Shown piece by piece: positions 6,949-51,206 of a DNA stretch of 64,000 bases (within the stretch, counting starts at the first letter, position 1; every line of letters begins with the position of its first letter). Below the pieces are notes generated by a model. The model did not search any database, had not been told where the DNA came from, and was given only the letters and a program-made list of their open reading frames with translations. A program made the translations under genes and the position numbers. The DNA lies in assembly GCA_965178125.1 (NCBI GenBank), contig OZ237767.1, positions 1 through 64,000 on the forward strand, read 5' to 3'. Source of the DNA: Bilabrum cf. latius. Lineage: Eukaryota.

Positions 6949-7016
6949 AATGCACAAATTCAAGACTATCCTCATTGTCACGCAAACCATGCATATCACT
7001 AGCGCACTCCACACAG

Positions 7017-10412: not shown

Positions 10413-10575
10413 ACCCTAACCCTAACCCTAACCCTAACCCTAACCCTAACCCTAACCCTAACCCTAACCCTAACCCTAACCCTAACCCTAACCCAAACCC
10501 TAACCCTAACCCTAACCCTAACCCTAACCCTAACCCTAACCCTAACCCTAACCCTAACCCTAACCCTAACCCTAA
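10413..10575. repeat. Interstitial telomeric tract 3
   Basis: ~27 CCCTAA units, one CCCAAA variant. Confidence 0.97.
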
Positions 10576-20700: not shown

Positions 20701-22611
20701 TTTCGGATCCTCCGGCGTTGGTTAGGTCTACCACCAGATCAGCGTTCACCTCGGCGTCACCCCGAAGCACGACCCGCATCTTGGCCAGGCCTGGGGAGTA
20801 CTCGCTCGGAAATCCGATGGAGTTGACGGCGGTGACTTGGGAATGTCCTGAGAACTCGAACTCGAAGGATGCCTCCACATAGGCGAAGCTGCAAGGTCAA
20901 GGAGAAGGTCAGGCGGAGCACCACGAAAGGCATGCGGTTGGCTACTCTGCACTAAAACCCTGCCCACACTGGTCGGTGATCCTAGCAAACCACTCCGCAT
21001 TCGGAAAATCTACACAGAATTGGCCGCAGAACCAGAAACAATCAAGCGTAGACGCGATGTTGCTGCGCTCGATGTGCATGAACGCGGAAGCTCACGTGTC
21101 CTCGAAGTAAATGATGTCTTGCACCAAGTCGATACGGTCGTTCACGGGGGAATCCACGTCGAAGTCATAATTAAAGCCCCACTGAAAGAGCTGCCATTCG
21201 CAATCATAGTTGAAGTAGGCTGTGGCAGTGCTGATGACAATGCCAAGTCCTTGTTGGTCGCACTCGGAGGCCGTGCGCCGACCGCGGCCCGTGGCCCGGG
21301 AGGTCCTCAGACGCTGCTTGACAGCTGCCGGAGCCTTGTCGACGGTGCCGTGAGCCGCCTTGCTCTATGCATGCTCGGGAACTATTTTAAGTCTGACGTC
21401 AAAAGCATTTGAGGCCATGGAGGGCGGCACCATCTCTGCACGGAGGCGTGTGACCCACAACGTACTCTCTGAGTCGCCAGTCACGCGCTGCGGCTCCGTT
21501 GCCGTTACAACCATGACAGTCTGTCCTTCGGGCAAGCCGGTGCTGTGGCTCTTCTGACCTTTGAGATTCGCATGCAGGCCACCGCTGGTGCCGTATACAC
21601 CGGCACCGAGGCGCTCAGGGCACCCCCATCCCTACTCGAATACGAGAGCCTGCCCGGGCTGAGCTAGGAACGGCAAGACCGAGGTGAGCATCATCTCATC
21701 GCCGCGTCCAGGGCACTCAACAGACAGTACTTCTGGCTTGTCTTCGAGCACGACGGTGTCGTTGCGGAGGACGACGTGGTATTCAACCTCAGAAGAGCCA
21801 ATGCCCGGCGCCTCGAGAGCGGCCGAGTGCAGGTACCTGCCGCCATGCCTCCCTGCCGAGGCCTCAGCCGTCTCGATGGGTAAGGTGCGACGCGCAATGT
21901 GAAGGAATCCGGTGGGAGCAGATGGTTCGAACGCTCTTGCATGGAAGACGGTTGCACGGCGGGAGCCGTCCTGGGAGCTTCTTGCGCCCATCCCGTGCGT
22001 CTCGATGGCGCCTCGCAGCTCTCTCGCATGATGGCTTGATACAGAGCCTTGAGGCACATTGTCGATGTTTGCATGTACAACGGTCACTAATAGGCCCAAG
22101 AGATCGCCAAGGGATCGAATTTGGCTCAGCGAGGCCGTCACGTGGCATGGCTCGGCTTGGCCACAGAGCTCAACCACTGCTCCGTGAAGAGATGCGCGGC
22201 AGCGCGTGGTCTGCGGCACAGAGAAATAACAAGGACAAATTGCAATGGAATTGCAATCGTGGATGACGAGACGCTCTCTGCGTCAGGGGTAAATTCGATC
22301 ATTTCACCCCCTCGCGCTTCGCGCCCCAGAAACAGTTGTAGACTATCTATTGCAGACTATGGCTGCAAACCTGAGCGGCTGACGCGATATCTTACGATAT
22401 TAAGATTTAACACGGAGTCGCAAACCCCTGAGAAGTCTACTATTGGCGATTCTGCGGCCGGCTTGAGGACCACCCCAACTTTTTCGTGGTAGTGCGTATC
22501 GTAAGAGGCCGTACCGGTTATCGTCGTGCTGCCACTCGCCGGAAGGGCCACAACAACAGCAACAAGACATTGTGCTGCGAACGCAGCTGCAAGTATGGTT
22601 GCAACGAGCAT
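17738..22611 (-). CDS. Large secreted/type I membrane surface protein with duplicated ectodomain module (TAG read as sense)
   Basis: Signal peptide MLVATILAAAFAAQCLVAVVVA; C-terminal TM (SVAVVVVAVGVAYYFM); ORF pieces join in frame at TAGs 21632, 21365, 19445, 18854, 17813, 17807, 17747, 17744 (also 22357); introns 21063-21095 and 20889-20969; one unresolved junction near 22150-22350; ends TGA. Confidence 0.75.
19876..20110 (-). repeat. Coding 27-bp tandem repeat x8 (DDDD/GGSSRQ)
   Basis: Repeat visible in DNA and translation. Confidence 0.9.
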
Positions 22612-24082: not shown

Positions 24083-26743
24083 TCAGCTCAGAGGAGGCGC
24101 CTTGAGCTTCCAGAGCACCGACCCCTGGTACGGCACGACCGACACGTTGATCGACTTCATCCAGCCGTTTGCGTTGAAGCCCCCGACCCACTTGGGGTCC
24201 TGCATGGCGAGCGTTGCCAGCTGTCCGGGCTGCCTGGTCTGCATCTCCGTATGCACGAGGTCACCATACCCGTCCGAGTTTGGGTGCGCCTGGAACTTGT
24301 CCAGTGCGGCTGCACCTCCATCCCCGGCCATCCTGGCCCACAGGCTCCTCATGCCGGCCAGCGCCAGGGACACGTTCGCATGCGCCGGGTAGGTCGCGCT
24401 GGCGTTCGAGGCCCACTCCTGCTCGTGCTGCATGGCCCACCGGGACCAGGCGCTCTCGTTCAGAGGCACACCCGCCTCGTTGGCCTGCACCACCCGGCCC
24501 ACGAACTCCCCCCAGCTGCTGGCGTACAGCGTGCCTGCGATCCCGGCCCACTGCCGCTGGGCGTACGACTGCAGCACGGCCCCAGTCCCCTCCACGGGCC
24601 CCCACAGCGTGATGAGCCACTTGGCGTTGGTCACGTACTGCCTCTCCCTGGCCTGTGCCCCGGCAGACCCTGGACTCTCGCCGGCTGCCTGTGAGACAGC
24701 TGCTGCCATGTCCCTGGCCCCCTGCACCCATGGGCCCAGCATGAACTCGTCACACCCGCTGAGCACTGCGTCGATGTCTTTCACCTGCTCCACCAGCAGG
24801 GCCCCCAGCATCCTCGTGCTCTCGGTCCTGTTCTCGCTGTAGGCCGCCATGGCCATCCCGTACGTGTCCTCGAACCATGTGGTGGCCTCCTGCCGAGTGA
24901 CGTCCACCACATCGCGCAGCAGCATGGGACGGCCCACCCACCAGCTGGCAGAGGCTGCATTCGCTGCACCGGGTCCTCCCCCGTCCCCATCCCCACCGGC
25001 CGGGTGCCCCACCCCGATGGCAGCCGACAGGTTGCGCCAGGCGTCCGTGAGGGCAGACGCGTCATACCAGTACCCGAGGTTGCCTTGGTGCAGCCCCGGG
25101 CGGAACATCCACGCGGCCGTGTCCCTTTGTAGCGTGTAGTTATACACGGCTGTGTGCAGAGCCTCCCAGCCCTGGATCACCAGCTGCCGGGCATCGCTCG
25201 GGACGTCCTGGTCCTGCAGGCCATACCTGGGTGTGACGAACGAATGTAGCAGCCAGTCCCCGATCGCATCTGCAGTGGGCTGCACCTGTTCCCAGCCCAG
25301 GTCCGCCAGCAGCCTGTACATGACTGGGTTGTCGTGGATGCCCTCGGGGGAGGACCCCACGCCCGCCATGCCGCCACCGTGAGAGGTCGCGTTCCCCACG
25401 GCCGCCGCAACATGGGTCAGGTTCCCGAAGATGCCCACGCGCCCGCCCCCGTTGTTGAGCACGCACCACACGAAGTCCTGTCCGAAGAACCCCTCCGTCT
25501 CCTGCCAGATGGGGTACTTGAAGGCAGCCAGGTCCAGCACCAGCATGCGGCCCATGGGTACCCCCGTGACGAATGACTTGATCTGAGGGGGCTTCCAGAA
25601 AGCCGGCTCGAAGGAAAATGCCCACCCCTGGATCACCCACACCGCGTCGGGGTCCACCTCGGCCATTGAACCGAACGTTCGTGAAGCCGCAGAGGCCAGG
25701 AACTCGGTGTCGTTGGACTGCGGCAGCATCTCGTTGTAGCTGTCCGCATTGAACAGGTGCGGGGTCCCCGGCTGCCCTAGCCCACCCATGGTCTGGTTGT
25801 AGAGCCTCAAAAAGTTTTTCTGGATCTGGTCGAATAGAGGGTCCGTTGGCTCGAGGAACCCGTCCTCGGTGAACTGCTCCGGCATGCCCGCCCAGTAGGG
25901 AGACCTCGTGATGTTGGCGTCAGGGAACAAGTCCTGCAGGGCCAGAGGGACGTGCACCGCGAAGGCCGGCATGATGGGCAGGAAGCCGAGGGAGCGAGCG
26001 TGGGCGAGCACCTCCCTGGCCATGCCAGCCTGCCACGAGCGGAAGGCGGGGTCCAGCGGGCCCATCCATCCGCGCATGTTGCCCATGCGGGGCCCACTCC
26101 AGGCCAGGAAGGCAGGGCCGGCGAAGAAGCGCTGCAGCTGCTCCTCGGTGACCCCCAGCGCGGCAAAGACCTCGGCCCACACGAACTCCTGACCCTGGAA
26201 CAGAACCGGGGCGTTGTAGCCCTGCAGGGCGATCACATCTAGCTCGCGGATCCACTCATCAGTGCCCCAGAAGGGCATAGAGTAGGAATGCGCCACGACG
26301 TTGTAGTTGTACCGGATCGAGTGCTTCGCGGTTGTTGCGATCTGCATCGGCGCGCCCGGCAGCGGGGATGCCGGAGTTCCAAGGCAAGCGAGCTGCTTGC
26401 CCGGCCTGTCAACATCGCATCCAACCTTGTGGAGGTAGTCTCCAAGCGCCCTGGCGGCCGCTACCCCAGAGGAAGCGGCAACGATCATTTGGTTCGTTTC
26501 GATCCGGATATCGTAGCTGTCCAGCGGCCGCCCGTTCTGATCGTGACCGTAACCCGTTTGCACGAATGTCAGCCGTACATTGTCAAGCCTGCTGCCTAGC
26601 ACTCTGCGATACAGCGAGGATGCTGCCGTTGAATTTAGAGCCGGGAACTCAGTGTGTCTCGAGGCCTGTTGCGTGCTCAGGCGATTAGCAGCAGTCTGCG
26701 CCGCGTATGCCGCGAAAAGAAACGGGAGAAATTGATGAACCAT
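24083..26743 (-). CDS. NAGLU: Alpha-N-acetylglucosaminidase (GH89)
   Basis: RYNYNVVAHSYSMPFW, GPAFLAWS, FNADSYNEM, VWVIQGW, FVWCVLNNGGG, PEGIHDNPVMY, ITLWGP, YAQRQWAG; hydrophobic N-terminus from ATG 26743; ends TGA. Confidence 0.93.
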   Translation of the reverse strand: MVHQFLPFLFAAYAAQTAANRLSTQQASRHTEFPALNSTAASSLYRRVLGSRLDNVRLTFVQTGYGHDQNGRPLDSYDIRIETNQMIVAASSGVAAARALGDYLHKVGCDVDRPGKQLACLGTPASPLPGAPMQIATTAKHSIRYNYNVVAHSYSMPFWGTDEWIRELDVIALQGYNAPVLFQGQEFVWAEVFAALGVTEEQLQRFFAGPAFLAWSGPRMGNMRGWMGPLDPAFRSWQAGMAREVLAHARSLGFLPIMPAFAVHVPLALQDLFPDANITRSPYWAGMPEQFTEDGFLEPTDPLFDQIQKNFLRLYNQTMGGLGQPGTPHLFNADSYNEMLPQSNDTEFLASAASRTFGSMAEVDPDAVWVIQGWAFSFEPAFWKPPQIKSFVTGVPMGRMLVLDLAAFKYPIWQETEGFFGQDFVWCVLNNGGGRVGIFGNLTHVAAAVGNATSHGGGMAGVGSSPEGIHDNPVMYRLLADLGWEQVQPTADAIGDWLLHSFVTPRYGLQDQDVPSDARQLVIQGWEALHTAVYNYTLQRDTAAWMFRPGLHQGNLGYWYDASALTDAWRNLSAAIGVGHPAGGDGDGGGPGAANAASASWWVGRPMLLRDVVDVTRQEATTWFEDTYGMAMAAYSENRTESTRMLGALLVEQVKDIDAVLSGCDEFMLGPWVQGARDMAAAVSQAAGESPGSAGAQARERQYVTNAKWLITLWGPVEGTGAVLQSYAQRQWAGIAGTLYASSWGEFVGRVVQANEAGVPLNESAWSRWAMQHEQEWASNASATYPAHANVSLALAGMRSLWARMAGDGGAAALDKFQAHPNSDGYGDLVHTEMQTRQPGQLATLAMQDPKWVGGFNANGWMKSINVSVVPYQGSVLWKLKAPPLS

Positions 26744-26903
26744 AGGGAACAGGTCGTGGATGCCCTGAGAACGAGCAGAAGACGGCGGAAAATGCCAACA
26801 GAAGACCACAGGGCGATCTTGCGACCATAATGATACACCAGAACCCAAGGTGAATAATCCGATTCTTGGCCTGTTCAACAACCAACTAGACAACATGAAC
26901 GAC

Positions 26904-28340
26904 TCAAACCATTTCTGTGAGCCGGGCCTACGACGAGGATTGGTGCAAGCCGCTGGTTGCTGCGCCGTTGGGAAGGTCCTGCCTACCTCCACCACTGCCA
27001 CCATTTTGGCTGCCTTGAAGCGCCTCGCCCACGCCCGTCTTTTCCGACCCTTCGCCTTCCCGCCTTTCGTCCGCCTTACCTCCCTACTCCTCTTTGTCCT
27101 CGTCCTGGTCCTGGTCCTCCCCTCCCGCCTGGGGCCACTGAGGCATGCCCGCCATCCGCACGGCAATCAGGGCGTCCAAAATGATCTGCACGAAGTGTGA
27201 CAGGATGCAGGGAATCACCAGCAGACCGGGGGGCCCTGCCGCAGTCTCCCCCAGCGCCTCGATCACGGCAACTGCCGTTCCCAGCGTCTTCTGCGAGGCG
27301 CACAGCACAACGGCCTTCCGCTCCGGCGCCTTGGCAGGCAGCCAGGTTGCAACCGCGGCGTAGTTCAGCACGAGCATCACCAGGTGCAGCGTGATGCCCA
27401 GCAGGGCCACGTATACCAGATCAGCCGCGCTCACCGCCTTGAAATCCTCTTCGGCCTGTGACACCTTGACCCACGGTATGAGCACCAGCAGCACGGAGGA
27501 CCCCACCTTGATGTACGGCTTGAGGGCCTTCACCAGGGCAGGCACACCGGGGATGAACTGGAGCAGCTTACCCACCACCACGGGCAGGAATATGGTCAGC
27601 AGCAGCCGCAGCAGCAGCGCACCCGCGTCGATGCTTGCCTGCCCCCCCTCGTCTGCCTGGCCTCCGGTAGCCGTGCCGTTGGCGGTGCCGTTGGCTGCAG
27701 CATCATGCTGGTCGCCACTATCGTCGGTCACATCCACCAGAGTGGCCTGCAGCCAAAAAGGGGCCGTCACTGTGGCAAGCACATTGGTCACCACGCTGAA
27801 GAGCAGCGCCAGCGCCACGTTTCCCTTGGCCTGGCCCGTCAGGACAGCGCAAGAGGATATCGTCGTGGGCATGGCGGCGAACAGAGCGAGGCCATTTGCA
27901 AACGTTCGTTCATCCAGCGGGATGGCGGAGAGCGCGAATCCGAGCAGCGGGCTGAGGCCTAGGATGAACACCGTGCCCCACAGGGCCGATGGCCAGGACT
28001 GCAGGGCCTCGAGCACCTCGTCTGTCTTTAGCTACAGACCCGACACTAAGAAAATCCCTACCACGCAAATTGTAGTGAGAGGTGTATCGCCAAAGAATTG
28101 GCCAGGGTCGGGGACGAGGGCACCAAACACTACCAAAATGACGAGCAGCGCAGGAAGGTGCCACTTGAGCAGGTTTGCGCACACGCAATCCCACGTGCTG
28201 ACTGGTTCCTTTGTTCGGCTCTGATTCCCGCCTTGCCTTTCGGAATCGGCCTAGTCTTGCCTTGACTCAAGGGGCTCATCCCCGCTTGAGACTTGTTGAT
28301 CCACGTCGTCGCCAGTCTTTGCCTCGTTCCGTGAGTCCAT
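26904..28340 (-). CDS. Bile acid:Na+ symporter (BASS/SBF-like) family transporter (TAG read as sense)
   Basis: FLVSGL*LKTDE, MPTTISSCAVLTGQAKGN, CASQKTL, PCILSHFVQ; ATG 28340 to TGA 26904 with TAGs at 28251, 28032, 27084, 26928. Confidence 0.88.
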
Positions 28341-28671
28341 TGAACTAATCTCCGTTTCAATATCGTGCTATTATGTATCGAATCAACACCGCGCAAGTAT
28401 ATAGCGATGGAAGGAGTTTACGTCCTCTCTGTGAGGGCATCCGATTCGTTGTCGTCGCGAGCCTCCCTGAGGACCCTCATTTCCGGCTTCACACGGTGGC
28501 TGCCGGAGTCCAGGCGGGGCGCTCCGCTCCCTGCATCCTGTTTGCAGAGCTAGTCAACAAGGCAGTACAAGGTATTCAGATTCAGTCTGTACCTATCTGC
28601 CACGTTTCACTTTCGGACCGATTTTTTGTTTGGATTCATTCGGCAGAGCCATCGACAACGGCTCCGAAAAG

Positions 28672-31600
28672 ATGGGACAGAGGCTTACCGCGGCATGGCG
28701 CTATCTGGTACCGGAGCTTACCGACGAAACTGCCACTGTAGATCATCCCGTATACATTGCCACATCGTGCGACCCCTTTGGTGTGTGCTTCTACTACAAG
28801 CCATTCCTGCCACAGAATGTGCTGCCGCTACATGTTTGGCAAAAGCTGTGCAAGGATGCTCAACAAGTAGGAATAGGAACAAGGCAGCTGCAAGAGCTTT
28901 TGATGTTATTGTGTAGATCTGATGAACCCTCGTGGGGCACTCTGCGCCTTGTGACCATGCTGCGATTCGTGGACCCCAGGTGCAGGCGGGTGCTCATGCG
29001 GCTGCTTCGAGTGGCAGCGAGGAGGGGCGAGCGCAGGATTATGTACGAAGACGCGGTTCGGCTGCTCGTAGACCTGGGAGCGCTTGATTTCTAGCAGCTG
29101 ATAGAGGCCTGCGTCCAGGTCACACTCAAGCGCAGCCTCATCGACGTGGCCGGCGTCCGCGCATGCATCCGCTTCCAGGCCACCGACGAGCTGGGCCCCT
29201 TTGCCCGCATGGTGCTGTCTAGGATGGACTCTGAGATGGTGGGGGCTCAGCACACCATGGAAGCTGCGGTGCATATCTTCTTGCGGTACCCAGTGCTGGC
29301 CCACCCCTTCCTGCTCCTGCAGCGGGGCATCCAGAAGAGGACGCTGGGGTTTAGGTTCTGGACCAACTACCACACCAGGCAGCGCTCTTTGCTCCTGAGA
29401 CCCGAGTTCTCGATCGCCGACCTGCGAGCCATGACAGCCCGCGTGCTGCTCATAGAGGCCGTTTCGGAGCTGGCGCACCCCTTCCTGTTCGGGTCTGCCA
29501 GCACACTTGCTGTCACGGAAGATGGCACTGTTGTGCACGCGGGCGCCGCGCGCGGCAGCGGAACCTCTCGAGCTGGCTCCGTATCCGGTAAATCCTCCGT
29601 CCGCTCACAAGAGGCCGGACCCGTGATCGATGCCGGTGATTTGCCCTACGGCGCCGATGATGCTCTGCAAGGGGGGCGGGGCGGAGGACACGGCAGCTCG
29701 GGTGCCGTTCGTGGTGGTAGGCCAGTCGACGTGTCACACGTGGGTCTGAGTGGCGGCTCGAGTGAAGGCGCTCTCGTGGTTGCGGGGCCATCAGTGGTGC
29801 AGCGGACTGCGTCCCCTGCTGGGCCGTCTCAATCGATCTCGAATGCCGGTGGAGATACCGGTGGAGGCGCGGGAGGGAGTCAGGCAGCCAAGCACACCCA
29901 CGCGCAGCTTGTCGTCTCTCGGCCGGGAACGGGAGCAGAGGGAACAAGCATGAGTTCTGGCCTCGTGTCATACTCACAGACCTCCCAGCCGACCTGGGAC
30001 TTGGACCTGCACAGGGAGTCGATCGCATCCGCAGGGGCGTTGGGCCAGCTCGCCGCCGTGGACAAGCGGACAATCTTGCCGCCGGTCGTTGTCAGCCTGC
30101 CGCAGCCCCCGCGCCTGCAAGCCATCGCTGGAGATGCCTCATGGGCAAATAAACACCCACCGCCGCACGGATCAGCCGCGGATTTCGCGCTCACGTCGAT
30201 GCAGATCGCCCGTCGCGTGCTCATGCACGCCACTGCCAACCTCTCCTCCCCCGATCACCTGGTTGAAAAGACGCCTTGCCTGCTGTGCCAGCGGGAGATG
30301 AGGACGCTGAAGAGCGCACGATTCAGAAGAGGCAGCGGCACATCTGCAGGGGGGTCAGGGAAGAAGGCTCGGTCCCGGTCCCGCCGCAGGAGCAGCGCCT
30401 TGGATCTGCTCGTGGCGCAGGACAGGATGAGGGAGGGCAAGTCGCAGCGAGCGGGGGGTGGGGAGGCGCTTGCAAGGCTGTAGGCCAGCAACGGGGACTA
30501 GAATACAAATGGAATGCAGGCGCTGCCACAAGGTGGCTTCCCAGGTGTGGGGGGTTTGCAGCCGCAGCAAGTCTAGCAGCAACCGATTGCTACATATATG
30601 CACGGCGGGAGGAAGAAGCGGCTCGTGTGGAAATGGAGGGACCCGAGGCAAGGCTTCAGCGCGCGGCTGTCACGGAAGCGAGTGGCCAAAGGCGCAGTAG
30701 CCAGGACAGGGGAGAGCATGGCAGGCCAGCCGCGCATGCAGGTGGCAGTGGCCACGGACCGGCACATGGAGAGGCCAGAGAGCGAGATTGAGGACGGGTT
30801 CTCATTTGAGCTAGAGTCCAAGTCTGTCGATGAGCAAGACCAGCGGGAGTCCAAGTCTGTCGATGAGCAAGACCAGCGGGAGTCCAAGTCTGTCGATGAG
30901 CAAGACCAGCGGGAGTCCAAGTCTGTCGATGAGCAAGACCAGCGGGAGTCCAAGTCTGTCGATGAGCAAGACCAGCGGGAGTCCAAGTCTGTCGATGAGC
31001 AAGACCAGCGGGAGTCCAAGGTTGGCAGCAAAGAGCAGCCTGACCATCCATAGGATACCATGGGTGCGGCCAGTGGGCCCAAGCTGGTTGCGAGCGATGG
31101 TAGTCAAGAGGATGTGTTTGCAGAGGAACACAGCCCCGGCTCTGCGGAAGCCATTGTCAGTCGAGGGCAGAATGGTGCTGCGCAGCTCGCGGATACCTAG
31201 TTGTAGGGCGATTTACCCAGGTCAGTTCCATCTCTGGATGGCGAGTCTATACCGGCCGACATGCAACTTGCGGCAACTGACGAAGCCACCAGTCTCGGCT
31301 CTGAGAAACCGGCGGGGAGTTTTGACGAAGGGAACCTTAATGAAGAGTCGTTTGTACCGGTTCGATCATCGCAAGGACAGGACCTTGATGGAAGCCAAGC
31401 ATAGAAACTTGATCGATACCATAGGCGAGGGGGTCAAGCGGACGAGGGCGAGGCTGCCGGCGCTGCCAGTAGCTTGTCTCGCATTCCCCAAACCGCATCG
31501 GTAGCACCGAACATAGACTCACACCAGCTTTTCGACGTTGTCGTTCATCCCCCGGAGGAGAGGTCGGGCCTGCATGCCAGTAATGATTTCGAACTACCTG

Positions 31601-32061
31601 TCGAGGCTGGGTTGCAGGAGCGGCCAGAGCCCCAGCACAGGCCGAAGCCTGCTGCCCCACCGCCCTTTAAGGACCCTAGGCCGGTGAATCTGTCTGGGTC
31701 TGGATTTTGCGGAGAGTGTGAGGCATATCTACACGGGGCTATGGCGGACTAGTTCGGGTTCAAGCTGGCCAAGCAAGTCCTTGAGGCGTGCGTGGTGCCC
31801 CAGCGCACGTCCAAGCTGCTGGACAAGTTCGATGCTCACGCACAGCTAGAGCAGCAGCCTCTGGTGCAAAGAAGGTAGCAGCAAGCAGAGGCAAGCTCGC
31901 AGTCGGGCACTCGTGCATAGTTCCAGTTCAAGGACGCGCACTGGATCCAGCTGTTCGACGACCACAGCGAGGAGTTCTTCTACCACGACGTCACCACGGG
32001 GCGCTCTTAGTGGGAGAAGCCGGCTCGATTCAAGCCCTTCGATATGCAGCATTTGTCATAA
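28672..32061 (+). CDS. ~1130-aa protein with C-terminal WW domain (TAG read as sense)
   Basis: One frame with 12 TAGs (29092, 30481, 30499, 30574, 31051, 31198, 31204, 31402, 31750, 31876, 31918, 32008); WIQLFDDHSEEFFYHDVTTGRS*WEKP; ends TAA 32059. Confidence 0.82.
30813..31020 (+). repeat. Coding 33-bp tandem repeat x6 (ESKSVDEQDQR)
   Basis: Perfect DNA repeats. Confidence 0.92.
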
Positions 32062-33488: not shown

Positions 33489-36400
33489 TCAATTCCATCG
33501 GCTGCTTCTAGCAGCTGGCTGCGCGCCGTACTGCCCTTGCATCGGCTGCTGCATGCCTGGCACGCCGTGCATGGGAACCGGCGCCTGCCCCTGGCCAGGC
33601 ATAGGAGCAGGCTGTCCCATCCCTGCATACCCTGGAGGCCCACCAGCACCAGGTGGTATCCCCGCCCCGGGCCCGTACCCGCCCATGGGCGCCGCCGCCG
33701 CTCCCACCCCCGGCCCCGACGAGCCCCAACGAGACCCCCCAGCCGGAGGCATGCCAGCGGCAGCTGCGGAACTCGCAGACGTGGGCGCCGCGCTTCCCCA
33801 GCGCGAAGAACCCCCTGGGGCAGCAGCAGGTGCCGCTGCCGCTCCCCACCGAGACCCGCCCCTTGCCGCCACTTGGCTGCTGCTCCCAGCCGCCGGGGGA
33901 GCTTCAGCTGCTGCTGCTGCCGCCTGGCTGGTTTGGTCCTTCGGGGGCCATGGCTTGAGGCACCGCTTCTTGAAGTCCCTGATCAAAGAGGACACCGTGG
34001 GCGAGACCACGCCCCTCCACTTGAACCCATCGGGATACAGGCTCACCGCGTCGCGCATCACCCTGCCAGACCGGCTGGCGACGAATGAGATCTAGTAATA
34101 CCCGGGCCGCTTGGTCATGGGCGAGAGGAGATAGGCCACTCGCTTGGGCTCCCTCTCGCGCATGTCACGAAGCATGCCGTCCACCACGCCCTCCTGCGCT
34201 GGCCTGAACTTGGGGCTCGCGGAGAGCTGCTGGTACTTCTGCCGGATGGCGTCCAGGTAGAGCACCAGCACCTCCTCAAGCGAGCTGTACTTGTTCCCCC
34301 GCACCTCCAGGGTTCTCCCCAGAGACAAGGGCCCCTTGCTCGGGTCTTTGTTGTGCTCCAGCACATCCACGTGGCAGCAGGGGCCCTCGGCCAGCTTGTA
34401 AGTCAGGGTCAGCCGGTCCGTGCCAGTGCTCGAGGGGCGGAAGAGGCCCTCGAAGGCGGGCCCGCTCTGCAGCTCCTCCTCGACCGACTCCCTGCTCGCG
34501 TTGCGGAAGGCGTGGTGCCCGATGGCGCGCGTGCGGGTGCCGGTCCCGCCGGGGAGCGCCTGTCCCGAGGCGGCAGCAGCTGCGATCTGCCTCTGCTTGA
34601 GCTGCTTCCTCACGGCCTCCATCGCCCACTCCGTGTCAACGTACCGGTCGCAGATGGGCAGGGGCGGCGGCATGCGCATCATCTCTGGCTTCACGGATAC
34701 CATGATCCTCCGCATCACCCGGTCGATGCCGATGACCCGCACTGGGATGGTCGTGTCCCGCTGCAGCATGGCCTGGATGTCCTCCCCGCGAGCCGCCGCC
34801 TGGGTCAGCTCGTCGGGCAGCTGGTCCATCCCGCACTCGGCGCGGATCCTGTCCCGGAACCGCAGCTGCAGCCCACTGCGGCGCGCAGACACCACAACGG
34901 CAGAGTCAACCACTCCGGGCCGCAGGGAGGCTGCTGTCTCTCCCGTCAGCCAGCGGAAGATGGCGGCGTTGCTGGGCGGTGTGTAGGGGTCCCTGCTGGC
35001 CCCGTAGGGCCTCCTGAGCTCCCCCTTGATCCTCTCCAGCAGCCGGAGGAAAGACTGCCTGCCCTTGCTCTGCAGGTCCTACGCGAAGGACGGGAGGTCC
35101 ATCTCCTCCAGCGTGTCACGGGGCTCTGCCACCATCCACACGGACCCAATCGGCTGCTCCGGGTTCTTCGCTTCGGCCTCTTTTTGTTCCCTCGACTTGA
35201 GAAAGCCGAGGTCTCCGCCCAGGTGCACCGCAGACGTGCCGTTGCACACGCCCTCGGCCCCGCACCTGCCGCTCTCCTCGGACCACTGTAGCCTCACCAG
35301 AGCCTCGGCTGGGCTCCAGGCCTCGTGCGGCCAGCAGGCCGACCCCTGTCTTAGCCTCCATCCCACCGCCACCGCGCTCTTGCTCACGGCCGCAGGGTTG
35401 GACACGACCTGCCTGGCCCAGTTCTGCAGCACCCTCTGCGCCCTGGACACGGTCCCCCGCAGCACATCCCTGCACCCCATGGGGTGGTGCGCCACGACCT
35501 AGGACCCGTCCCCGCCCACCAGCGGGTCGTACTCCCTCCCTTGTTCCCTAGCGTCCTCGAGGCCCAGCTGGTCCGCCGCAACGGCCATCTGCACGCACTG
35601 GTCATAGTGGCGCGGGTGCACCCTGAGCGCGTCAAGCGGGTGCGGGTCTGTGCTGAGCATGGTGCGGCGGGCCGAGCGGAGGGCCGCGCGGCGGCGGGCG
35701 ACGGCCGCATCGTCGCGCAGCTCCAAGCCGCGCTCCGTGCCCCCCTCCGCCGCAAGCGCGTCCAGGTAGTCGTCGTCCGCGCCCTCTCCCAGCTCATCCG
35801 GCCGGGCCAGGACCTCGTCTGCCTCCAGACCTACTTGCCCCCCTTCGTCCTCAACGTGCGCATCCGCATCCCCGTCGTCGAAGATCCTGTCCCAGCCCTC
35901 CCCCGCCCCTGCGGCCTCCGCCTCCTCGTCCGCAGCTGCTGCCTCGTGCAGCCGGCCCAGCCGCTTGGATGCCGCCACACCGGCGGCGCCAGCGAACCCG
36001 ACGCACTCGATCATGCAAGAGGCCCGGAGCGCAGACCCGAGGGACCGGGGAAAGCACAGGAAGGGGGCCGCGTTGGCCCATACCCGCCTAGGGAGCACAT
36101 GGTGCCGCAGGAGAGCCGCCCGCGAGTGCAGGCGACCGGCCGCTGCGGCCCCCCCACCGGCGCTCATCTGGCTCACGATGGCCCTCGCCTTCCTGGGGCC
36201 CAGACCGGGCACGAACTGCAGCGCGGGCACCAGGTGCTCCCTCTTGCTGACCGCGTGCAGGTCCACGCCGGCGCACGCGACGCTCTCCACCATGGCGCGC
36301 TCGCCCGCCAGCTGCAGCGCCGTTGCGGGCAGCAGGTGCTGGCACTCAGTCAGCCTAAGCGCCCTCAGGTCCTCGCTAACAGATGCAATGCCTGCCGTGC

Positions 36401-39400
36401 TGCAATGGTTTCCCGACTGCAACGAGCCTCTTAGCTCCCACAGACTGGCCATGGACGCCAGCGGGTCCTGCAGGTGCCTCGCGGCCAGCACAGCGGCACG
36501 GCTCCCGATGGACATGTCGGGCAGCTGCCGCTTCCCTGCAGGGCTGGTAGCCACAGCCAGGGGCAGCTCGGGGGAAGCCCAGGTCACGTGGAAGGTGTGC
36601 GGCTCCGTGTCATGGCGCACCGTCACACCGCCGTCCGCCCTGCGCTCGTACCCCGAGAAGCGCGGCGTCTTGCGGAACCAGTCCCCCCCGCGGGTCCATC
36701 GCCGGCCGTCCTGCGCCAGGTGCGCGTACAAACCGCCCTTGGAGTCTAGCGCCTGCGTGGGCCGAGCCAGCTCCCGCAGACCCCTCGAAACCGCCGCGGG
36801 CCGCAGCGCACCCGACTGCACCTCCATGGCACCAAACCCGCCCTCGGCGTCAGGCCCGCCGTCCATAGCCACCTACCCACCCGCCCCGGCGCCTGCTTCC
36901 TCGTCTTCGTCCTCCTCGTCCGACGACTCAAAGTCCTCGTCGGCGCCCCCCGCCCTCCGTGCCCGTCTCCTCCGCCTCCTGGCGCGCTCTTTGACGCTCC
37001 TCAGGCGGGCGATCTCAACCAGCCGGGCCGCCTCGATGGAGGCCAGCCGCAGCTGGTCCAGCAGCTGGGAGGTGTCCCGCTGGGCCGTGGCCACCACGCA
37101 GCCCGCGTGGGGTGCGTGCTGGAAAATGAGCGACGTCAGCCCCTGCAGCCGTGCATCCCTGCCTCTGGGCAGCTCTGCGCTCGACAGCACTTCCCCCCTC
37201 TGGTCCACCACCGCCGCGTGAGCAGTCCCGTCGGGCATTGACACCGCGCTAATCACTCGCAGCGAGCGCCCTCCCACGGTCTCGGCGTCGTCGTCCACGC
37301 GCACCAGCCCGCCTTCTGTCGCGTCTCCGTCCTCCCTGCCGGCCTGTTTGGCCAGTTTAGCCGTCTGCACGCGCGCCACGGCCTGCCGCACCTGCACGGG
37401 GAGCCGGTACGGCCCCGCCTGCGCAGCCCCTCGGATGGCCCTGGCCAGCTGCCCCTGCGCGGCCGCAACTGCCCTCCGCGTGAGCATGGCCCGCAGGTCG
37501 CTCGCCGCGTCCACCTCTAACCCCTGCTGCACCGCCAGGCTCAGCACCTCGAGCCGGATCGCGTCCACGGCCTCCAGCCGCAGTGACCCAGACCGCAGGG
37601 CATCGATGGGCGCCTCGTCCGTGGCAAGCCCAGCCACCTCTGCCGACCCCGAGTCGGAGAGGTACAGCGGCAGCAGCCTCTGGATGGCCTCGGCTCTGGC
37701 CGCCACCAGCTCCAGGTCCATCGTCAGCAACCCCTCCTTCTCCGCCTGCAGCAGCAGCAGCCACTGCTGCGGCCCGCCCACCCGCGCGGAAAGCTGCCCC
37801 ACCACCACAACCCGCCCCGCATCGCCCCCATCGCACTCCACCCCCACGCCGTCCATGGGCACACCCACCGCGGCATGCTGTCCACCCGGCCCAGACACCA
37901 CGGCCAGCTCTGCACCGCGCCCCGAGCCGTACCCCCCTTGCATGTCCAGCCACTGGGGCCCTCCCCCTCGCAGCAGCCGACCCATCGGGGGATCCTACTC
38001 GTCACACACCTCCAGCCCGAGAGCACCGCCCACCTCGCCCTGCCCGTCCCCGCCCCCGCCCGTCCCCGAGTCACCAGTGCCCCCCGGGAGGTAGCCCCCG
38101 AACTCCCCGCCCATCGCGTCACTGGCCGCGCCGGACCCCCGGGCGTCGGGCAGCTGGGGTGACATGCCTTTCTCCTCGTCGTGCACGAACTCGTACAGAG
38201 GCTTGGCCCGAATGGCGTGCAGCCCAAAGGCGGGGTGCAGCCCGTCGATCTTCTCGAGGCCCTGCTTGGTGGGGCTGGTGCTCAGGTTGCCCAGCCGCAC
38301 GGCCGTCTCCCTCACCGCTTGCCTGAAGGCAGGGTGCCTCCGGAGCTCGCGCTGCGCCACGTGCACGAGCGCCCGGCGGCAGTCGCTCGAGTCCACCAGC
38401 GCGTTGGTCCGCATTGCCTCCAGCGCCGCCTCCAGCCCGATGTCATCCGTCACCGCGGCTCCCTGCAAGGCCACCGCGTCCTCCACCGAGAGCGTCTTCC
38501 TCCCAGCCTCGATGCTCTCCGCGAATGTCTCGGGCCGCAGCATCAAACGGTTAGACAGTTGCCTGGCGCCCGCGGCGCACCCGAGCGTGTACAGGTCGCG
38601 CTTCATGCCCGCCTGGCCGCCGCTGGTGCCGGAACCCCCACCCAGGCCATCCATCGTGGCCCTCGCCCCCCGCAGCAAGATCTCAACATGCGCCGCTGCG
38701 TCCTGCATGGCCAGACCCCCGGTCCCGTCGCACGGATCCAGTGCACTAGGCCCCGCCTGCGCCGCTGCATCCACCCTTCTCGCCGCCTCGCTCGCCTCCA
38801 GCACGTCCAGCTGCCCGTTCTCGAGCGACTCCCGCAGTCTCTACAACAAGATGGCCCTGTTGGCCTGCGCCGAGCACCACTCGGAGTCCAGGTCCAGCAC
38901 CAGCCACACGTGCCTCAACCGCACAAAGGACGGCAGAACCTCCCTGTGCATCATCCAAATCACCACGGGCTCCAGCTTCACTCTGAGCACCCACCACAGC
39001 ACTCTCCTGGCAAACTCCTCCAGCGACTGCATGGCCACCGCACCCTGCTCGGCCTCTAGCACCAGCTGCAGCTCGCTCGCCCGCTCCTGGGCGGATGCGG
39101 CGGCTGCGTGGCTGCCCAGCGAAGCCACTCTGAACTCGTGCGCCAGCTCCCTCCTGAGCGCCCCCTGCAGCCTGCCCGCCATCCACCGCGCCTCTGTCTG
39201 GATGGACAGCGCAGAGGCGGTTGCACCCGGCAGGCTGGGCTCGGACAGCACCTTGAGCTGCTCGCCCGCCGCCTCCTGCGTTTCCGCGTCCCCGAGTCCC
39301 ACCGTCCTCGCGTCGATCCAGTCCTTGCCCAGGGGAGAGCGCCCCGCCAGCTCCCTCACCGCCCGCAGCGATGTCTCCCTGCGCCCCTGCCAGAAGAAGA

Positions 39401-40541
39401 GCCGCTCGGGACCGTTGGCCCGTCGGGCGCGGTTGTCCGTCGGAGTCAGGAAGAGCGCGGCCTGCGCCGACGCACCCATCCCCGCCGTGGCATCCTCCCC
39501 GTCACCGCCCCCCGCCACCCTCTCCTCCTCCTCGATCTCCGCCCTCGTCTTGATCTGCAGAGCCGCCCTTCCGTCCTGCCCCGCCTGCTCTGCGTCGATC
39601 AGGAGATCGTCCCTGTAGGCCATCATGAGGGCCTGGTCGCCCGCCCCCATCCGCTCTGCCGCGGCCGCGTCCACCTCCTCCTCCTGCTGCCCCATGCCCG
39701 CGAGAGACATGAGCTGCATCCCCCTGGACCCGAACACCTCCTCGAACTGCCGCACCTGATCCATAGAGGCGCCGCTGGCCAGCGCGGTGGCCTTGGCCCG
39801 GTTCCTCTGGTTCCGCTGCGCCCGTCTCTCCTCCTTGGTCAGGGCGAGGAACCCGTCCGAATCGTCGCTGTCCACCTCGGCAATCTCTTCCTCGAGAACG
39901 TCCGAGGGGCCCGGCCCGCCCGAGCCAGCGCCAGAGGACGGGCCGACTGCGGAGGGGGGAACCCCCGCGGGATCCAAGGGATCGAAAGGCATTCCAAAGG
40001 GGTCTTGTCCACCCGGCTGCCCGGCAGCTGCCACGGCAGCAGCGTCCTCCTCCGCCTCCGTGGGGCCCAGACCCTGGTTCTCTCGGATGAGAGCCAGGTC
40101 GTCGTCGTCCACCTGCACGCGGCGCTTCTGCAGCCGCTTCCGCTTTCGCTTCCCGCGGCCACTACCATCGCTTCCGTCTGAATCATCGTCTCCGTCAGAA
40201 TCGCCAGAATCGTCCGATGATGAATCATCGTCGCTGCCGCCCTCGTCCTCGCTGCCAGCCACAAGTCCTTCCAAGTTCCCTTCTTCATCGGCATCCTCAT
40301 CCTCTTCGTCCCCACTCCCATTGACAAGCCTGCCATTCTCGTCCTCTTCTCCCGCTTCTGCGTCAATGTACTGCCTCAAGATGGCCTATCGCTCAGCATC
40401 CGACACTGCGTACCCGCTGTTCGACTTGCTGCTACTAGGGCCGGAACCGTCTTGTCCCTGGGCGTCCGGCGAGCCTTTGGAGCCACTAGTAGATTCAGCT
40501 GGACTTAAAACGGGAGATTGATCATTTGAAGAGCTAGACAT
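33489..40541 (-). CDS. SPT6: Transcription elongation factor / histone chaperone SPT6, ~2350 aa (TAG read as sense)
   Basis: Acidic N-terminus, STSPTKQG..IDGLHP, HhH LQFVPGLGPRKA, PLDALRVHPRHY, S1 region, tandem SH2 (FRPSSTG; YPDGFKWRG); one frame with TAGs at 40386, 38841, 37995, 36873, 35499, 35079, 34092; ends TGA. Confidence 0.92.
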
Positions 40542-41259
40542 GGCAGATGGAGACAGCTACGCAATTCAGACGGAGCAGAGACGCCTTGATCGTGCCGCAA
40601 CAAATGCACTGGTACAGTGACAACCTTTAGATAAGTTAGCACCGCAACTACCGATTGAATGCCAACAAATAGGACAGGTAGTCCGGTGGCGGGCCGTCTT
40701 TGGGTGCGGCTCGGCCAGCGATCGTATATTCCCAGAAATTGAACCTTACAAAGCTACAACTAGAGGAATTACAATATTTCGTAATACGAGAGCAGCATTA
40801 GTAACTTTGAGAGCATGCCAGATGATTTGAATGCAATAGAACGTATTCTTGACTCCCCATTCCGGCATTTCCTGCCTGCTGCATTAGGAGCGTTCGGGGG
40901 CTGTGTTGTCGGCTTTGGAGGGCATTATTTTACGGCACCAGCACCCCTAGTGATTGGAAATAAGTAGAGATAGAATTCATTAAGATGTTAGATACGTGTA
41001 GGAGCTTTTTAGATTGCAACAAGCGTCATCGCAGATTTGTGTGCGTCTATCCGTACGGATGTGGCCCCCACCTGTGTACCATCTGATCCATTCCGATGTT
41101 CGTTTCGCAGTACGGGCTAGCGCGACATCCGCCGCAAGAGTAGGCAGCGTTTTTGGTTTGTACACATTAATAAGATAGACGCTTCGGCACGATTTGCAGC
41201 AGACTCCAACTACGTCTTCCTTAGCTGCCGGAGCTCTCTCGGTCACCACTGCATACGCT

Positions 41260-41598: not shown

Positions 41599-42005
41599 CG
41601 TCGTGTGCCATAGGCTGCGCCTATGATTGTCGTCGCTAGTCGTTGTTTGGGTTGCACAGTAGCACAGCAGGGAGAATACATTGAACTCAGAACAAGCTAA
41701 CGTGCCTTAATTTCGAGTGCACTGATCACACCCACGTTCTGACAGAGCCGACCACTGGCAGTTCCACGAGGACAAGTCAGTCTTTAGTATTTCGACTTAC
41801 GTTTCCGACCAAGTGATCCAAAACAGATGTGAGAAGTAAACCATGCAAGCAAAATCCCACTAGGCACCACCTACCTGACGTTTTGAGGTTAAGGGTGCCT
41901 TGGAAGAGCAGTCTTTCTGTGGCGTGCCTCCCATCGTAACCCTTACACTGCTCTCTCTTATCCAGACGCAGTCTGGTGATAGCTACAACCGTATCTATCG
42001 CGATT

Positions 42006-51000: not shown

Positions 51001-51206
51001 TGGTAGCCGCCGGTGCAAGTGCAATGGGCCGCTCCAGGCGCGATCTGGGTACAGCGGCGAGCACCCGCGAGGCCAAGGTCCAGTCGGCGCGAGACGCCGC
51101 ACCGGGGGCAGCGGCCGCGGCAATGAGCAGCCAAAGAGATTCGCACGAAGATGCGGCGTCGAATCCAGGGCAGAATATGGATCGGAACTGCGCGGAGGAA
51201 GTGTGA
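42006..51206 (+). CDS. ~3066-aa receptor-like protein: signal peptide, FG-GAP (integrin-alpha-like) repeats, multiple IPT/TIG repeats, FN3, Cys-rich region, multi-pass TM C-terminus (TAG read as sense)
   Basis: Single intronless frame with 12 TAGs (42381, 42528, 43632, 43710, 43995, 44997, 45138, 45819, 46794, 47073, 47709, 48594); LGDMDLDG/LGDINSDG..LAVG; P.VTSVSP..GG.VTV.G.NFG; CADGYSGLLCATCVPGY; YWEVVIMLRK; ends TGA. Confidence 0.9.

What the first reader, a model, noticed from the sequence alone, without database searches (positions are those of the whole stretch)
30481..32061. UAG most likely encodes glutamine
Seen: TAG 32008 sits in the WW motif TGRS*WEKP, where the family consensus is S/T-Q/T-WExP. 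TAG falls inside Gln runs: CAG CCG CAG CAA GTC TAG CAG CAA (30574), AGG TAG CAG CAA (31876), P**P at 17744-17749. IPT/TIG repeats read GG*PC (44997) and AG*PC (47709), against GSQTC in a sister repeat. Ankyrin N*AG occupies the H/Q/N position. Inference: Gln (one step from CAG). Glu or Leu are less consistent, although the SPT6 sites 35079 and 34092 are individually ambiguous.
Basis: partly seen in the sequence, partly recalled or inferred. Interest (0 to 1): 0.85.

Follow-up and report, generated by a model that had tools for sequence, protein, structure and literature searches.

The report
TAG stop codon read as glutamine
In this GC-rich eukaryotic chromosome end the stop codon TAG sits inside many genes and is almost certainly read as glutamine, a rare but already described kind of genetic-code change.

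Summary
Reading TAG as sense lengthens the longest frames from 1028/870/697 to 3089/2359/1307 codons. Reading TAA as sense does not. Contigs of spliced, RNA-like runs carry the TAGs unchanged.

Gln is supported. A syntenic relative, L001 (57-76% identical), has 13 alignable in-frame TAGs. The window has Gln (CAG) at 9 of them, and E, M, S and G at the others. Gln beats Glu by about 20 bits. At 8 window TAG sites with close homologues the nearest residue is Q 4, S 2, E 1, K 1. Pfam scores over five domain segments also rank Gln first, though Thr is only 0.7 bits behind.

No tRNA or release-factor gene could be examined. This is the table-15 type of code, in a lineage I could not place. TAG is also enriched in the last ten codons of frames, which I cannot explain.

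The parts
28471..32061 (+). Open frame of a WW-domain protein (1196 codons, ends TAA). It has 12 in-frame TAGs at 29092, 30481, 30499, 30574, 31051, 31198, 31204, 31402, 31750, 31876, 31918 and 32008.
   Evidence: The N-terminal part is 57% identical to the neighbouring frame in the syntenic locus L001.
32008..32010 (+). TAG just before the second Trp of the WW domain (TTGRS-TAG-WEKP).
   Evidence: WW bit scores with TAG read as Q 33.6, T 32.6, S 31.6, K 29.3, L 28.6, X 28.6, Y 28.1, E 26.1, W 24.0.
26904..28370 (-). SBF-like transporter gene. TAG at 28032 (codon 113, motif VSGL-TAG-LKTDE) lies in a conserved membrane segment. Further TAGs lie in the tails at 28251, 27084 and 26928, and one at 28368 probably lies before the start.
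   Evidence: Pfam SBF_like, 5.8e-57. Codon 113 faces CAA (Gln) in L001 (68% identical) and Q in P0141 (73% identical). More distant homologues have K 5, T 2, N, P, S, A.
24083..27166 (-). NAGLU gene with no TAG. Eight of its CAG (Gln) codons face TAG codons in the orthologue of relative L001.
   Evidence: Pfam NAGLU, 4.3e-109. Alignment to L001 is: 12 relative TAGs face Q 8, E, M, S, G. A ninth Q comes from the SBF gene.
58029..59516 (+). Conserved protein of unknown family with TAGs at 58293 (codon 89) and 58779 (codon 251).
   Evidence: Codon 89 column over 120 homologues: Q 43, K 22, R 21, D 8, gap 7, S 6, E 6, L 4, T 2, N 1. Four of the five homologues at 52-53% identity have Q and one has R. 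Codon 251 is a variable column (L 44 of 120), and a 96%-identical fragment has E.
41940..51206 (+). IPT/TIG receptor-like protein frame (3088 codons, ends TGA) with 12 in-frame TAGs at 42381, 42528, 43632, 43710, 43995, 44997, 45138, 45819, 46794, 47073, 47709 and 48594.
   Evidence: One 8954-nt contig of the spliced run X5 covers 41972-48899 with 0 differences, so all 12 TAGs are kept. Fragments 93% identical from a close relative read Q at 43632 and 45138 and S at 43710. Other fragments stop exactly before 43995 and 44997.
33489..40565 (-). SPT6 frame (2358 codons, ends TGA) with 8 TAGs. The sites 35079 and 34092 lie in alignable regions.
   Evidence: Pfam SH2_2 4.4e-44 and HHH_7 9.3e-12. 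Columns over 17 homologues: 35079 gives E 4, K 3, Q 2, A 2, T 2; 34092 gives L 3, I 3, R 2, S 2, N 2. RNA-like contigs keep the TAGs at 34092, 35079, 35499, 36873 and 38841.
14163..15983 (-). Ankyrin-repeat frame with 9 TAGs. The TAG at 15777 falls in AAKCN-TAG-AGFVAAL.
   Evidence: The Ank matches are below Pfam's cut-off (19.0 against 21.1 bits). This part was not scored per residue.
17738..20896 (-). Repeat-rich membrane protein frame with 6 TAGs. Four are in the last 25 codons (17813, 17807, 17747, 17744).
   Evidence: This frame contributes to the excess of near-terminal TAGs.
52825..52830 (+). TAG directly followed by TGA at the end of the frame 51481-52830. Other near-terminal TAGs are at 26928 and 1864.
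   Evidence: 5 TAGs in the last ten codons of 16 frames against 0.80 expected (Poisson P = 0.0014), in 4 of 16 frames.

Best explanation
The organism reads UAG as a glutamine codon in its nuclear genes and ends translation at UGA and UAA. This is the code NCBI lists as table 15.

Shown here:
- TAG lies in frame in conserved genes and is kept in spliced transcripts.
- TAG positions correspond to Gln in orthologues, in both directions of comparison.
- At least three further related sequence sources show the same trait, so it belongs to a clade rather than one strain.

Inferred from what is known of other UAG-to-Gln lineages, and not tested here:
- UAG is decoded by a tRNA-Gln whose anticodon has changed from CUG to CUA.
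- The release factor eRF1 no longer recognises UAG, or recognises it poorly, while still recognising UAA and UGA.
For: TAG is a sense codon:
- Reading TAG as sense lengthens the longest frames from 1028/870/697 to 3089/2359/1307 codons. Reading TAA as sense does not.
- The frames carry real domains: SPT6, IPT/TIG, WW, SBF_like and UVB_sens_prot.
- All 16 frames tallied end in TGA (13) or TAA (3).

TAG is kept in transcripts:
- Runs X5, X6 and X8 hold contigs spliced at GT..AG (40987-41110; X5 also 41829-41971). The same runs cover the TIG and SPT6 TAGs with 0 other letters and no joints that remove them.

The relative points to Gln:
- L001 keeps the gene order WW protein / SBF / NAGLU. It has 13 alignable in-frame TAGs and no in-frame TAA or TGA.
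- The window has Q (always CAG) at 9 of the 13, and E, M, S and G at the rest. The chance of 9 or more, given 4.8% Gln, is 8.5e-10.
- Log-likelihoods are Q -29.6, E -49.3, K -50.7, S -67.6 and L -81.0 bits.
- One of these TAGs sits at the Gln of the motif CAS-Q-KTLG. The predicted protein of a second relative, P0141, ends at the same point.

The window's own sites point to Gln:
- SBF codon 113 faces Q in both close homologues.
- Codon 89 of the 58029-59516 protein faces Q in 43 of 120 homologues and in 4 of the 5 closest.
- TIG codons 565 and 1067 face Q in 93%-identical fragments.
- The nearest-homologue tally is Q 4, S 2, E 1, K 1 of 8, with log-likelihoods Q -23.0 and E -28.2.
- Pfam sums are Q 469.2, T 468.5, S 466.6, K 464.1, Y 461.6, E 461.2, W 457.9 and L 456.9.
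Against: - No tRNA was found in the window or in L001, and no whole genome is held. The decoding tRNA and eRF1 are therefore untested.
- Half of the 8 window sites with close homologues do not face Gln. They face S at 43710, S at 28251, K (or S) at 27084 and E at 58779. All four are in variable or tail regions, and TCG, AAG and GAG are each one step from TAG.
- The SPT6 columns lean acidic or hydrophobic. At 35079 the column is E 4 of 17. At 37995 the three closest homologues read D, D, E. At 34092 human SPT6 has L and the second PDB chain has F.
- The Pfam sums do not separate Gln from Thr (0.7 bits). Most of the Pfam signal comes from the single WW site.
- TAG is about 6 times enriched in the last ten codons of frames. 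A pure sense codon does not predict this.
- X5's record is labelled 'probably DNA' by the tool. I call it RNA-like only because of its spliced contigs.
Confidence: 0.88

Rival explanations
1. UAG has two meanings. It is Gln inside genes and still a terminator (or a leaky one) at the true ends of some genes, as in context-dependent codes. A related reading is that the near-terminal TAGs are relics of former TAG stops that are now read through to a nearby back-up TAA or TGA.
For: - There are 5 TAGs in the last ten codons of 16 frames against 0.80 expected (P = 0.0014), in 4 of 16 frames (P = 0.0064).
- The tails after these TAGs are short, 0 to 7 codons. One case is TAG directly followed by TGA at 52825-52830.
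- The SBF gene of relative L001 also ends ...ADM-TAG-GCC-TAA.
- The fragment P0139 (91% identical) ends exactly at the window's TAG 26928.
Against: - The test is post hoc and rests on 16 frames.
- C-terminal tails are weakly constrained, so new TAGs could simply be tolerated there.
- The tail of the 17738-20896 frame reads as a plausible P/Q-rich sequence if TAG is Gln.
- The TAG at 32008 is only 16 codons from the stop, yet the WW motif WEKP follows it, so it must be read through.
- A gene caller using the standard code ends fragments at any TAG, so P0139 cannot tell the two readings apart.
Confidence: 0.2
2. UAG encodes glutamate. This is reported for UAG in an uncultured ciliate (PMC11687900 passages; PMC10553269 seen in a search listing only) and for UAR in peritrichs and Blastocrithidia.
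For: - A 96%-identical fragment has E at 58779.
- The window has E (GAG) at 1 of the 13 relative TAGs.
- SPT6 35079 has E in 4 of 17 homologues. At 37995 the three closest homologues read D, D, E. Human SPT6 has E at 35079.
Against: - The log-likelihood is 19.7 bits worse than Gln at the relative's TAGs and 5.2 bits worse at the window's own sites.
- The Pfam sum is 8.0 bits below Gln, and WW alone is 7.5 bits below.
- E occurs in only 6 of 120 homologues at 58293.
- E is absent at 28032 in all 15 homologues.
Confidence: 0.03
3. UAG encodes leucine (as in the rhizarian exLh and some phyllopharyngean ciliates), serine (as reported for Scotinosphaera), or another residue such as Lys, Tyr or Thr.
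For: - Leu: the 34092 column has L 3 and I 3 of 17, and human SPT6 has L. The 58779 column has L in 44 of 120.
- Ser: the nearest homologue has S at 43710 and 28251, and the Pfam sum for S is only 2.6 bits below Q.
- Thr: the Pfam sum is 0.7 bits below Q.
- Lys: K occurs in 5 of 15 homologues at 28032.
Against: - At the relative's 13 TAGs the log-likelihoods are L -81.0, S -67.6, T -65.3, K -50.7 and Y -92.0, against Q -29.6.
- The Pfam sum for L is the lowest of the nine readings scored (456.9).
- At 58293 the counts are T 2, S 6 and L 4 of 120.
- Thr codons are two steps from UAG, and I know of no nuclear UAG-to-Thr precedent (recalled, not searched for).
Confidence: 0.04
4. The TAGs are not translated at all. 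The frames would then be pseudogenes, or the TAGs would lie in introns or be edited out of the mRNA.
For: - The genome does have introns. Spliced joints are seen at 40987-41110 and 41829-41971, and dUTPase is split.
- A few TAGs at the 5' ends of my stop-to-stop frames (for example 40557 and 28368) probably lie before the start codon.
Against: - Twelve TAGs lie in one 3088-codon frame that has no TAA or TGA.
- A single spliced-run contig covers 41972-48899 with 0 differences and no joint, and the SPT6 contigs behave likewise.
- The TAG positions are shared with relatives, or replaced there by Gln codons.
- Domains continue across TAGs, as in WW, SBF_like, SH2_2 and TIG.
Confidence: 0.02

Closest known systems
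Nuclear code with UAG = Gln and UAA/UGA kept as stops (NCBI table 15): Iotanema spirale (Fornicata), Protocruzia tuzeti, and the phyllopharyngean ciliates Hartmannula sinica and Trochilia petrani
   Same: Only UAG is reassigned, and to glutamine. UAA and UGA still end genes. In-frame UAGs fall at positions where Gln is conserved: those authors report 58-70% of internal UAGs, and here 9 of 13 (69%) in the relative. Sources: PMC5304391 (abstract read) and PMC11687900 (passages read).
   Different: This sequence is not ciliate-like. It is a large GC-rich (about 51-71%) chromosome end with (CCCTAA)n telomere repeats. Its genes are not close to any named organism: the best named hits are Vitrella at 39-41%, Choanoeca at 52-53% and an Nk52 record at 27%. 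The lineage is unplaced, so I cannot say whether this is an independent origin. The decoding tRNA and eRF1, which were examined in those papers, could not be examined here.
UAR (UAA and UAG) = Gln codes (NCBI table 6: many ciliates, hexamitin diplomonads and others)
   Same: UAG is read as Gln, presumably through a tRNA-Gln derivative.
   Different: Here TAA ends 3 of 16 frames and never occurs inside the long frames. Reading TAA as sense gives no longer frames.
Other UAG-only reassignments: Leu in the rhizarian exLh and some phyllopharyngeans, Ser in Scotinosphaera, Glu in an uncultured ciliate
   Same: The meanings of UAG and UAA are uncoupled (PMC11687900 passages; PMC5304391 abstract).
   Different: The residue differs. 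Leu, Ser and Glu are 51, 38 and 20 bits worse than Gln at the relative's TAGs.
Context-dependent stop/sense codes (Condylostoma, karyorelicts, Blastocrithidia UAA)
   Same: The same codon may be used both inside genes and at their ends, as the excess of near-terminal TAGs hints.
   Different: In those codes the dual-meaning codons are reported to be depleted near the true stop (PMC11687900 passage). Here TAG is enriched there. Two dedicated stops (UGA, UAA) remain, and dual use is not shown.
TAG-to-Gln recoding in crAss-like phages (table 15)
   Same: The codon and the residue are the same.
   Different: That is a phage late-gene system with a phage-encoded suppressor tRNA. This is a eukaryotic chromosome with spliced genes.

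Membership tests
Table-15-type nuclear code (UAG = Gln; UAA, UGA = stop) | In-frame UAG in conserved protein-coding genes, present in mature transcripts | tested here: met
   71 TAGs lie in 13 of the 15 large frames tallied. Domains span TAGs. Contigs of spliced runs keep the TAGs with 0 differences.
Table-15-type nuclear code (UAG = Gln; UAA, UGA = stop) | UAG positions correspond to Gln in homologues | tested here: met
   9 of 13 relative TAGs face Q in the window. At 8 window sites the nearest homologue is Q in 4. Q is first among the 9 readings scored with Pfam, with T only 0.7 bits behind.
Table-15-type nuclear code (UAG = Gln; UAA, UGA = stop) | UAA is not a sense codon | tested here: met
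   Reading TAA as sense gives no gain in frame length. There is no in-frame TAA in the L001 frames. Three of 16 window frames end in TAA. The sample is small.
Table-15-type nuclear code (UAG = Gln; UAA, UGA = stop) | UGA remains a stop | tested here: met
   13 of 16 frames end in TGA. The NAGLU frames of the window and L001 both end in TGA within a few residues of each other.
Table-15-type nuclear code (UAG = Gln; UAA, UGA = stop) | UAG is not used as a terminator | tested here: inconclusive
   TAG is enriched in the last ten codons: 5 against 0.80 expected, in 4 of 16 frames. No 3'-end data are available.
Table-15-type nuclear code (UAG = Gln; UAA, UGA = stop) | A tRNA with anticodon CUA and a tRNA-Gln body | not testable with these tools
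   No tRNA was found in the window or in L001 by ARAGORN or Rfam. No genome is held.
Table-15-type nuclear code (UAG = Gln; UAA, UGA = stop) | eRF1 altered so that UAG is not recognised | not testable with these tools
   No eRF1 gene is among the window's frames scanned against Pfam.
Context-dependent (ambiguous) stop/sense code | The same codon is shown to terminate at gene ends and to be translated internally | tested here: inconclusive
   Internal translation is supported (see the rows above). Termination at TAG is only suggested by the excess of near-terminal TAGs.

The most novel reading that the evidence does not exclude
UAG may be only partly captured in this lineage. It would be read as Gln inside genes but still act as a terminator, or as a leaky, backed-up former terminator, at the ends of about a quarter of genes. 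That would make this a GC-rich non-ciliate clade caught between a standard and a reassigned code, and an independent origin of the rare UAG-only change.
Probability: 0.2. Interest if true: 0.8.

Novelty: new member of a known kind. Interest (0 to 1): 0.6.

Why it matters
Nuclear codes in which UAG and UAA have different meanings are rare. The papers read here list, for UAG = Gln alone, one fornicate and a few ciliate lineages.

This would be a further case, in an unrelated-looking GC-rich organism with conventional chromosomes. At least three related sequence sources share the trait. If the lineage is confirmed to be new, it would be another independent test of how eRF1 and a CUA tRNA can separate UAG from UAA.

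There is also a practical consequence. Gene callers using the standard code cut this organism's proteins at every TAG. The database fragments that stop exactly at TAG sites show this. Annotation and any homology work on this clade therefore need table 15.

Tried and rejected
- A classifier based on neighbouring residues had no power. On ordinary codons the true residue ranked first for 8 of 60 codons, with a median rank of 6. For TAG it ranked L, K and Q first, which I do not count as evidence.
- Gln adjacency was no better than chance.
- The paralogous TIG-domain columns from 150 representative hits were too variable to help. Site 44997 gave V 72, T 52, Q 50 and so on, out of 496. Site 45138 gave D 94, A 56, L 55 and so on, out of 534.
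- Laying four runs gave no diverged relative. All pieces listed matched with 0 other letters, so no substitution spectrum at TAG could be read. No listed holder is on record as RNA.
- The spliced, deeply covered transcript at 40786-41655 has no long frame in any reading, so it gave no conserved TAG site.
- dUTPase and NAGLU in the window contain no TAG.
- PDB alignments of SPT6, the SBF protein and L001's NAGLU were too distant to decide single sites. Human NAGLU does have Q at two of L001's TAG sites.
- Taxonomic placement failed. Cluster look-ups gave names only for Choanoeca. The protein atlas returned bacterial NAGLU clusters.
- Earlier scan notes held nothing on this genome.
- Four literature searches found no paper describing a GC-rich non-ciliate with UAG = Gln. 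This shows only that none was found in that library. I did not open the supplementary tables of PMC11687900 and PMC5304391, which may list further taxa.
Full report
**What is there**

The window is a GC-rich (0.51-0.71 per 4 kb) eukaryotic chromosome end. It opens with 162 copies of CCCTAA at 1-977. Arrays of a 331-bp satellite and three interstitial CCCTAA blocks follow.

Under the standard code the longest frames are 1028, 870 and 697 codons. With TAG read as sense they become 3089, 2359, 1307, 1197 and 1053. Reading TAA as sense changes nothing. Reading TGA as sense raises only the general background of open frames, as expected in GC-rich DNA.

The long frames are real genes:
- SPT6 (SH2_2 4.4e-44, HHH_7 9.3e-12).
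- An IPT/TIG protein (1.3e-32), a WW-domain protein and NAGLU (4.3e-109).
- An SBF-like transporter (5.8e-57) and a UVB_sens_prot/RUS protein (2.6e-66).
- A two-exon dUTPase.

Fifteen large frames hold 71 in-frame TAGs. All 16 frames tallied end in TGA (13) or TAA (3).

**Check of the observation**

The frame 28471-32061 has 12 TAGs, and 11 of them lie in the finding's span.

**Are the TAGs in the mRNA?**

Four public runs hold this sequence with no listed differences. Three of them (X5, X6, X8) contain contigs spliced at GT..AG across 40987-41110. X5 also has a joint across 41829-41971. X7 has an unspliced contig across the first site.

I therefore treat X5, X6 and X8 as RNA-like, although the records do not say so and the tool labels X5 'probably DNA'. 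One X5 contig of 8954 nt covers 41972-48899 with 0 differences and no joint. It therefore keeps all 12 TAGs of the TIG gene. Contigs over SPT6 keep the TAGs at 34092, 35079, 35499, 36873 and 38841. For these sites, introns and RNA editing do not explain the TAGs.

**Which residue: the relative**

The SBF protein has close unnamed homologues. One of them lies on a 4631-nt metagenome contig, fetched as L001.

L001 carries the same three neighbours as the window: the N-terminus of the WW protein, the SBF gene and NAGLU. Amino-acid identity is 57-76%. L001 has lower GC (0.52) and one NAGLU intron that the window lacks. Its frames contain 15 TAGs and no in-frame TAA or TGA. Thirteen of the TAGs fall in aligned columns.

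The window's residues at those 13 columns are Q nine times (always CAG), plus E, M, S and G. Gln makes up 4.8% of the aligned residues, so nine or more of 13 has a probability of 8.5e-10.

I then used the 1326 ordinary aligned pairs as an empirical substitution table. The log-likelihoods are Q -29.6, E -49.3, K -50.7, D -60.3, T -65.3, S -67.6, L -81.0 and Y -92.0 bits. Ordinary Gln codons of L001 face Gln in the window 55% of the time, so 69% for TAG is what a Gln codon would give.

One of these TAGs is the Gln of the motif CAS-Q-KTLG. The predicted protein of a second relative (P0141, 73% identical) ends at the same residue.

Human NAGLU has Q at two of L001's TAG sites, and the Clostridium enzyme has Q at one.

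**Which residue: the window's own TAGs**

- **28032 (SBF codon 113, VSGL-TAG-LKTDE).** It faces CAA in L001 and Q in P0141. More distant homologues have K 5, T 2, N, P, S, A and 2 gaps, out of 15.
- **58293.** The column over 120 homologues is Q 43, K 22, R 21, D 8, gap 7, S 6, E 6, L 4, T 2, N 1. Four of the five homologues at 52-53% identity have Q. Two of these five are from Choanoeca.
- **43632, 45138 and 43710 (TIG).** Fragments 93% identical from a close relative read Q at 43632 and 45138 but S at 43710.
- **58779.** A 96%-identical fragment reads E, in a highly variable column.
- **27084 and 28251.** These lie in unconserved tails and face K or S, and S.

Taking the nearest homologue at each of these 8 sites gives Q 4, S 2, E 1, K 1. 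The BLOSUM62 log-likelihoods are Q -23.0, E -28.2, K -29.7 and S -30.9. P(4 or more Q of 8) is 2.3e-4.

Fragments of the close relative stop exactly before the window's TAGs at 43995, 44997 and 26928. This is what a standard-code gene caller does if the relative keeps TAG there.

**Pfam scoring**

I translated five domain segments with TAG read as each of eight residues or as X, and compared bit scores.

| TAG read as | Sum of five segments | WW alone |
|---|---|---|
| Q | 469.2 | 33.6 |
| T | 468.5 | 32.6 |
| S | 466.6 | 31.6 |
| K | 464.1 | 29.3 |
| Y | 461.6 | 28.1 |
| E | 461.2 | 26.1 |
| X | 461.2 | 28.6 |
| W | 457.9 | 24.0 |
| L | 456.9 | 28.6 |

The WW site gives most of the signal. 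The homologue tallies do exclude them. Two of the six sites scored here (28032 and 45138) are also in the homologue tally, so the two lines are not fully independent.

**Evidence pointing the other way**

- The SPT6 columns are variable and do not favour Gln. At 35079 the column is E 4, K 3, Q 2, A 2, T 2 of 17. At 34092 it is L 3, I 3, R 2, S 2, N 2, and the two closest homologues have R. At 37995 the three closest read D, D, E.
- Four of the eight window sites with close homologues do not face Gln.
Gln is next to TAG in 7 of 141 flanking positions, against a 4.4% background (P = 0.42). Gln codons themselves do not cluster in this genome.

**An unexplained pattern**

TAG is enriched at the very ends of frames. 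There are five TAGs in the last ten codons of 16 frames, against 0.80 expected (P = 0.0014), in four of the 16 frames (P = 0.0064). One case is TAG directly followed by TGA at 52825-52830. L001's SBF gene also ends ...ADM-TAG-GCC-TAA.

The test is post hoc and small. I see three possible readings:
- Former TAG stops are now read through to a nearby back-up stop.
- Selection against TAG is weaker where a failed decoding costs little.
- TAG is still used as a terminator.

I cannot tell these apart without 3'-end or ribosome data.

**Mechanism**

It is shown that TAG is in the transcripts, that it is a sense position, and that it corresponds to Gln. It is inferred that a tRNA-Gln with anticodon CUA decodes it and that eRF1 has lost UAG recognition. 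Neither gene is in the window or in L001, and no genome is held.

**Comparison with what is known**

UAG = Gln with UAA and UGA kept as stops is NCBI table 15. It is reported for:
- Iotanema spirale (PMC5304391, abstract read).
- Protocruzia tuzeti and two phyllopharyngean lineages (PMC11687900, passages read).

The same passages list UAG = Leu (a rhizarian and some phyllopharyngeans), UAG = Ser (Scotinosphaera) and UAG = Glu (an uncultured ciliate).

The present sequence does not look like a ciliate or like any named relative. The best named hits are Vitrella at 39-41% for SBF, Choanoeca at 52-53% for one protein and an Nk52 record at 27% for SPT6. I could not place the lineage.

Four literature searches found no description of such an organism. 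I did not open the supplementary tables of the two papers, which may list further taxa.

**Verdict**

- The interpretation (Gln) is supported, with confidence about 0.88-0.9.
- The kind of code is known. The lineage is probably a new member.
- The excess of near-terminal TAGs is the open point most worth following.

Noticed in passing
window 1-977; 9150-9312; 10413-10575; 12007-12460: The window starts with 162.5 copies of CCCTAA, which is a TTAGGG-type telomere. Three interstitial blocks of the same repeat (27, 27 and 76 copies) lie further in. This is a chromosome end.
   Followed up: partly
window 974-1756 and 7016-11817: Arrays of a 331-bp subtelomeric satellite, 98-99% matching, are interleaved with the telomere-like blocks. 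A 53-bp repeat lies at 12496-12923.
   Followed up: no
window last ten codons of frames: 1864, 17744/17747, 26928, 52825; L001 around 1950: TAG is about 6 times enriched in the last ten codons of frames: 5 against 0.80 expected, in 4 of 16 frames. L001's SBF gene ends ADM-TAG-GCC-TAA. These may be relic stops, tolerated leaky sites, or a sign of dual meaning.
   Followed up: partly
L001 1-4631 against window 24083-29000: The gene order WW protein / SBF transporter / NAGLU is conserved in a metagenome relative with lower GC (0.52). That relative uses TAG far more often: 12 TAGs in NAGLU, against 0 in the window and against 32 CAG+CAA in L001's own NAGLU. L001's NAGLU also has an intron starting GTAAGG that the window lacks.
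   Followed up: partly
window 40786-41655: This is the most deeply covered transcript-like contig in the laid stretch (depth 91 in X5). It is spliced at 40987-41110 (GT..AG) in three runs, but it has no long open frame in any reading, even with TAG as sense. It may be a non-coding RNA or a small protein gene.
   Followed up: partly
window 55224-55900, - strand: A dUTPase gene in two exons, with no TAG. The intron begins GTAG, so the in-frame TAG after exon 1 is intronic. The first exon starts about 100 bases from the stop of the upstream RUS gene.
   Followed up: partly
window 58029-59516: A protein of unknown family. Nearly all of its 164 homologues come from unnamed metagenome records or records labelled bacterial. 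The closest named ones are two choanoflagellates at 52-53%. Gene transfer is possible.
   Followed up: no
window 30814-31020; 19877-20110; 6445-6724: Perfect or near-perfect coding tandem repeats lie inside frames. There are 6.3 copies of a 33-bp unit (ESKSVDEQDQR) in the WW protein, 8.7 copies of a 27-bp unit, and 5.8 copies of a 48-bp unit.
   Followed up: no
window 53681-53880: A run of 200 N (an assembly gap) interrupts a frame with several TAGs.
   Followed up: no
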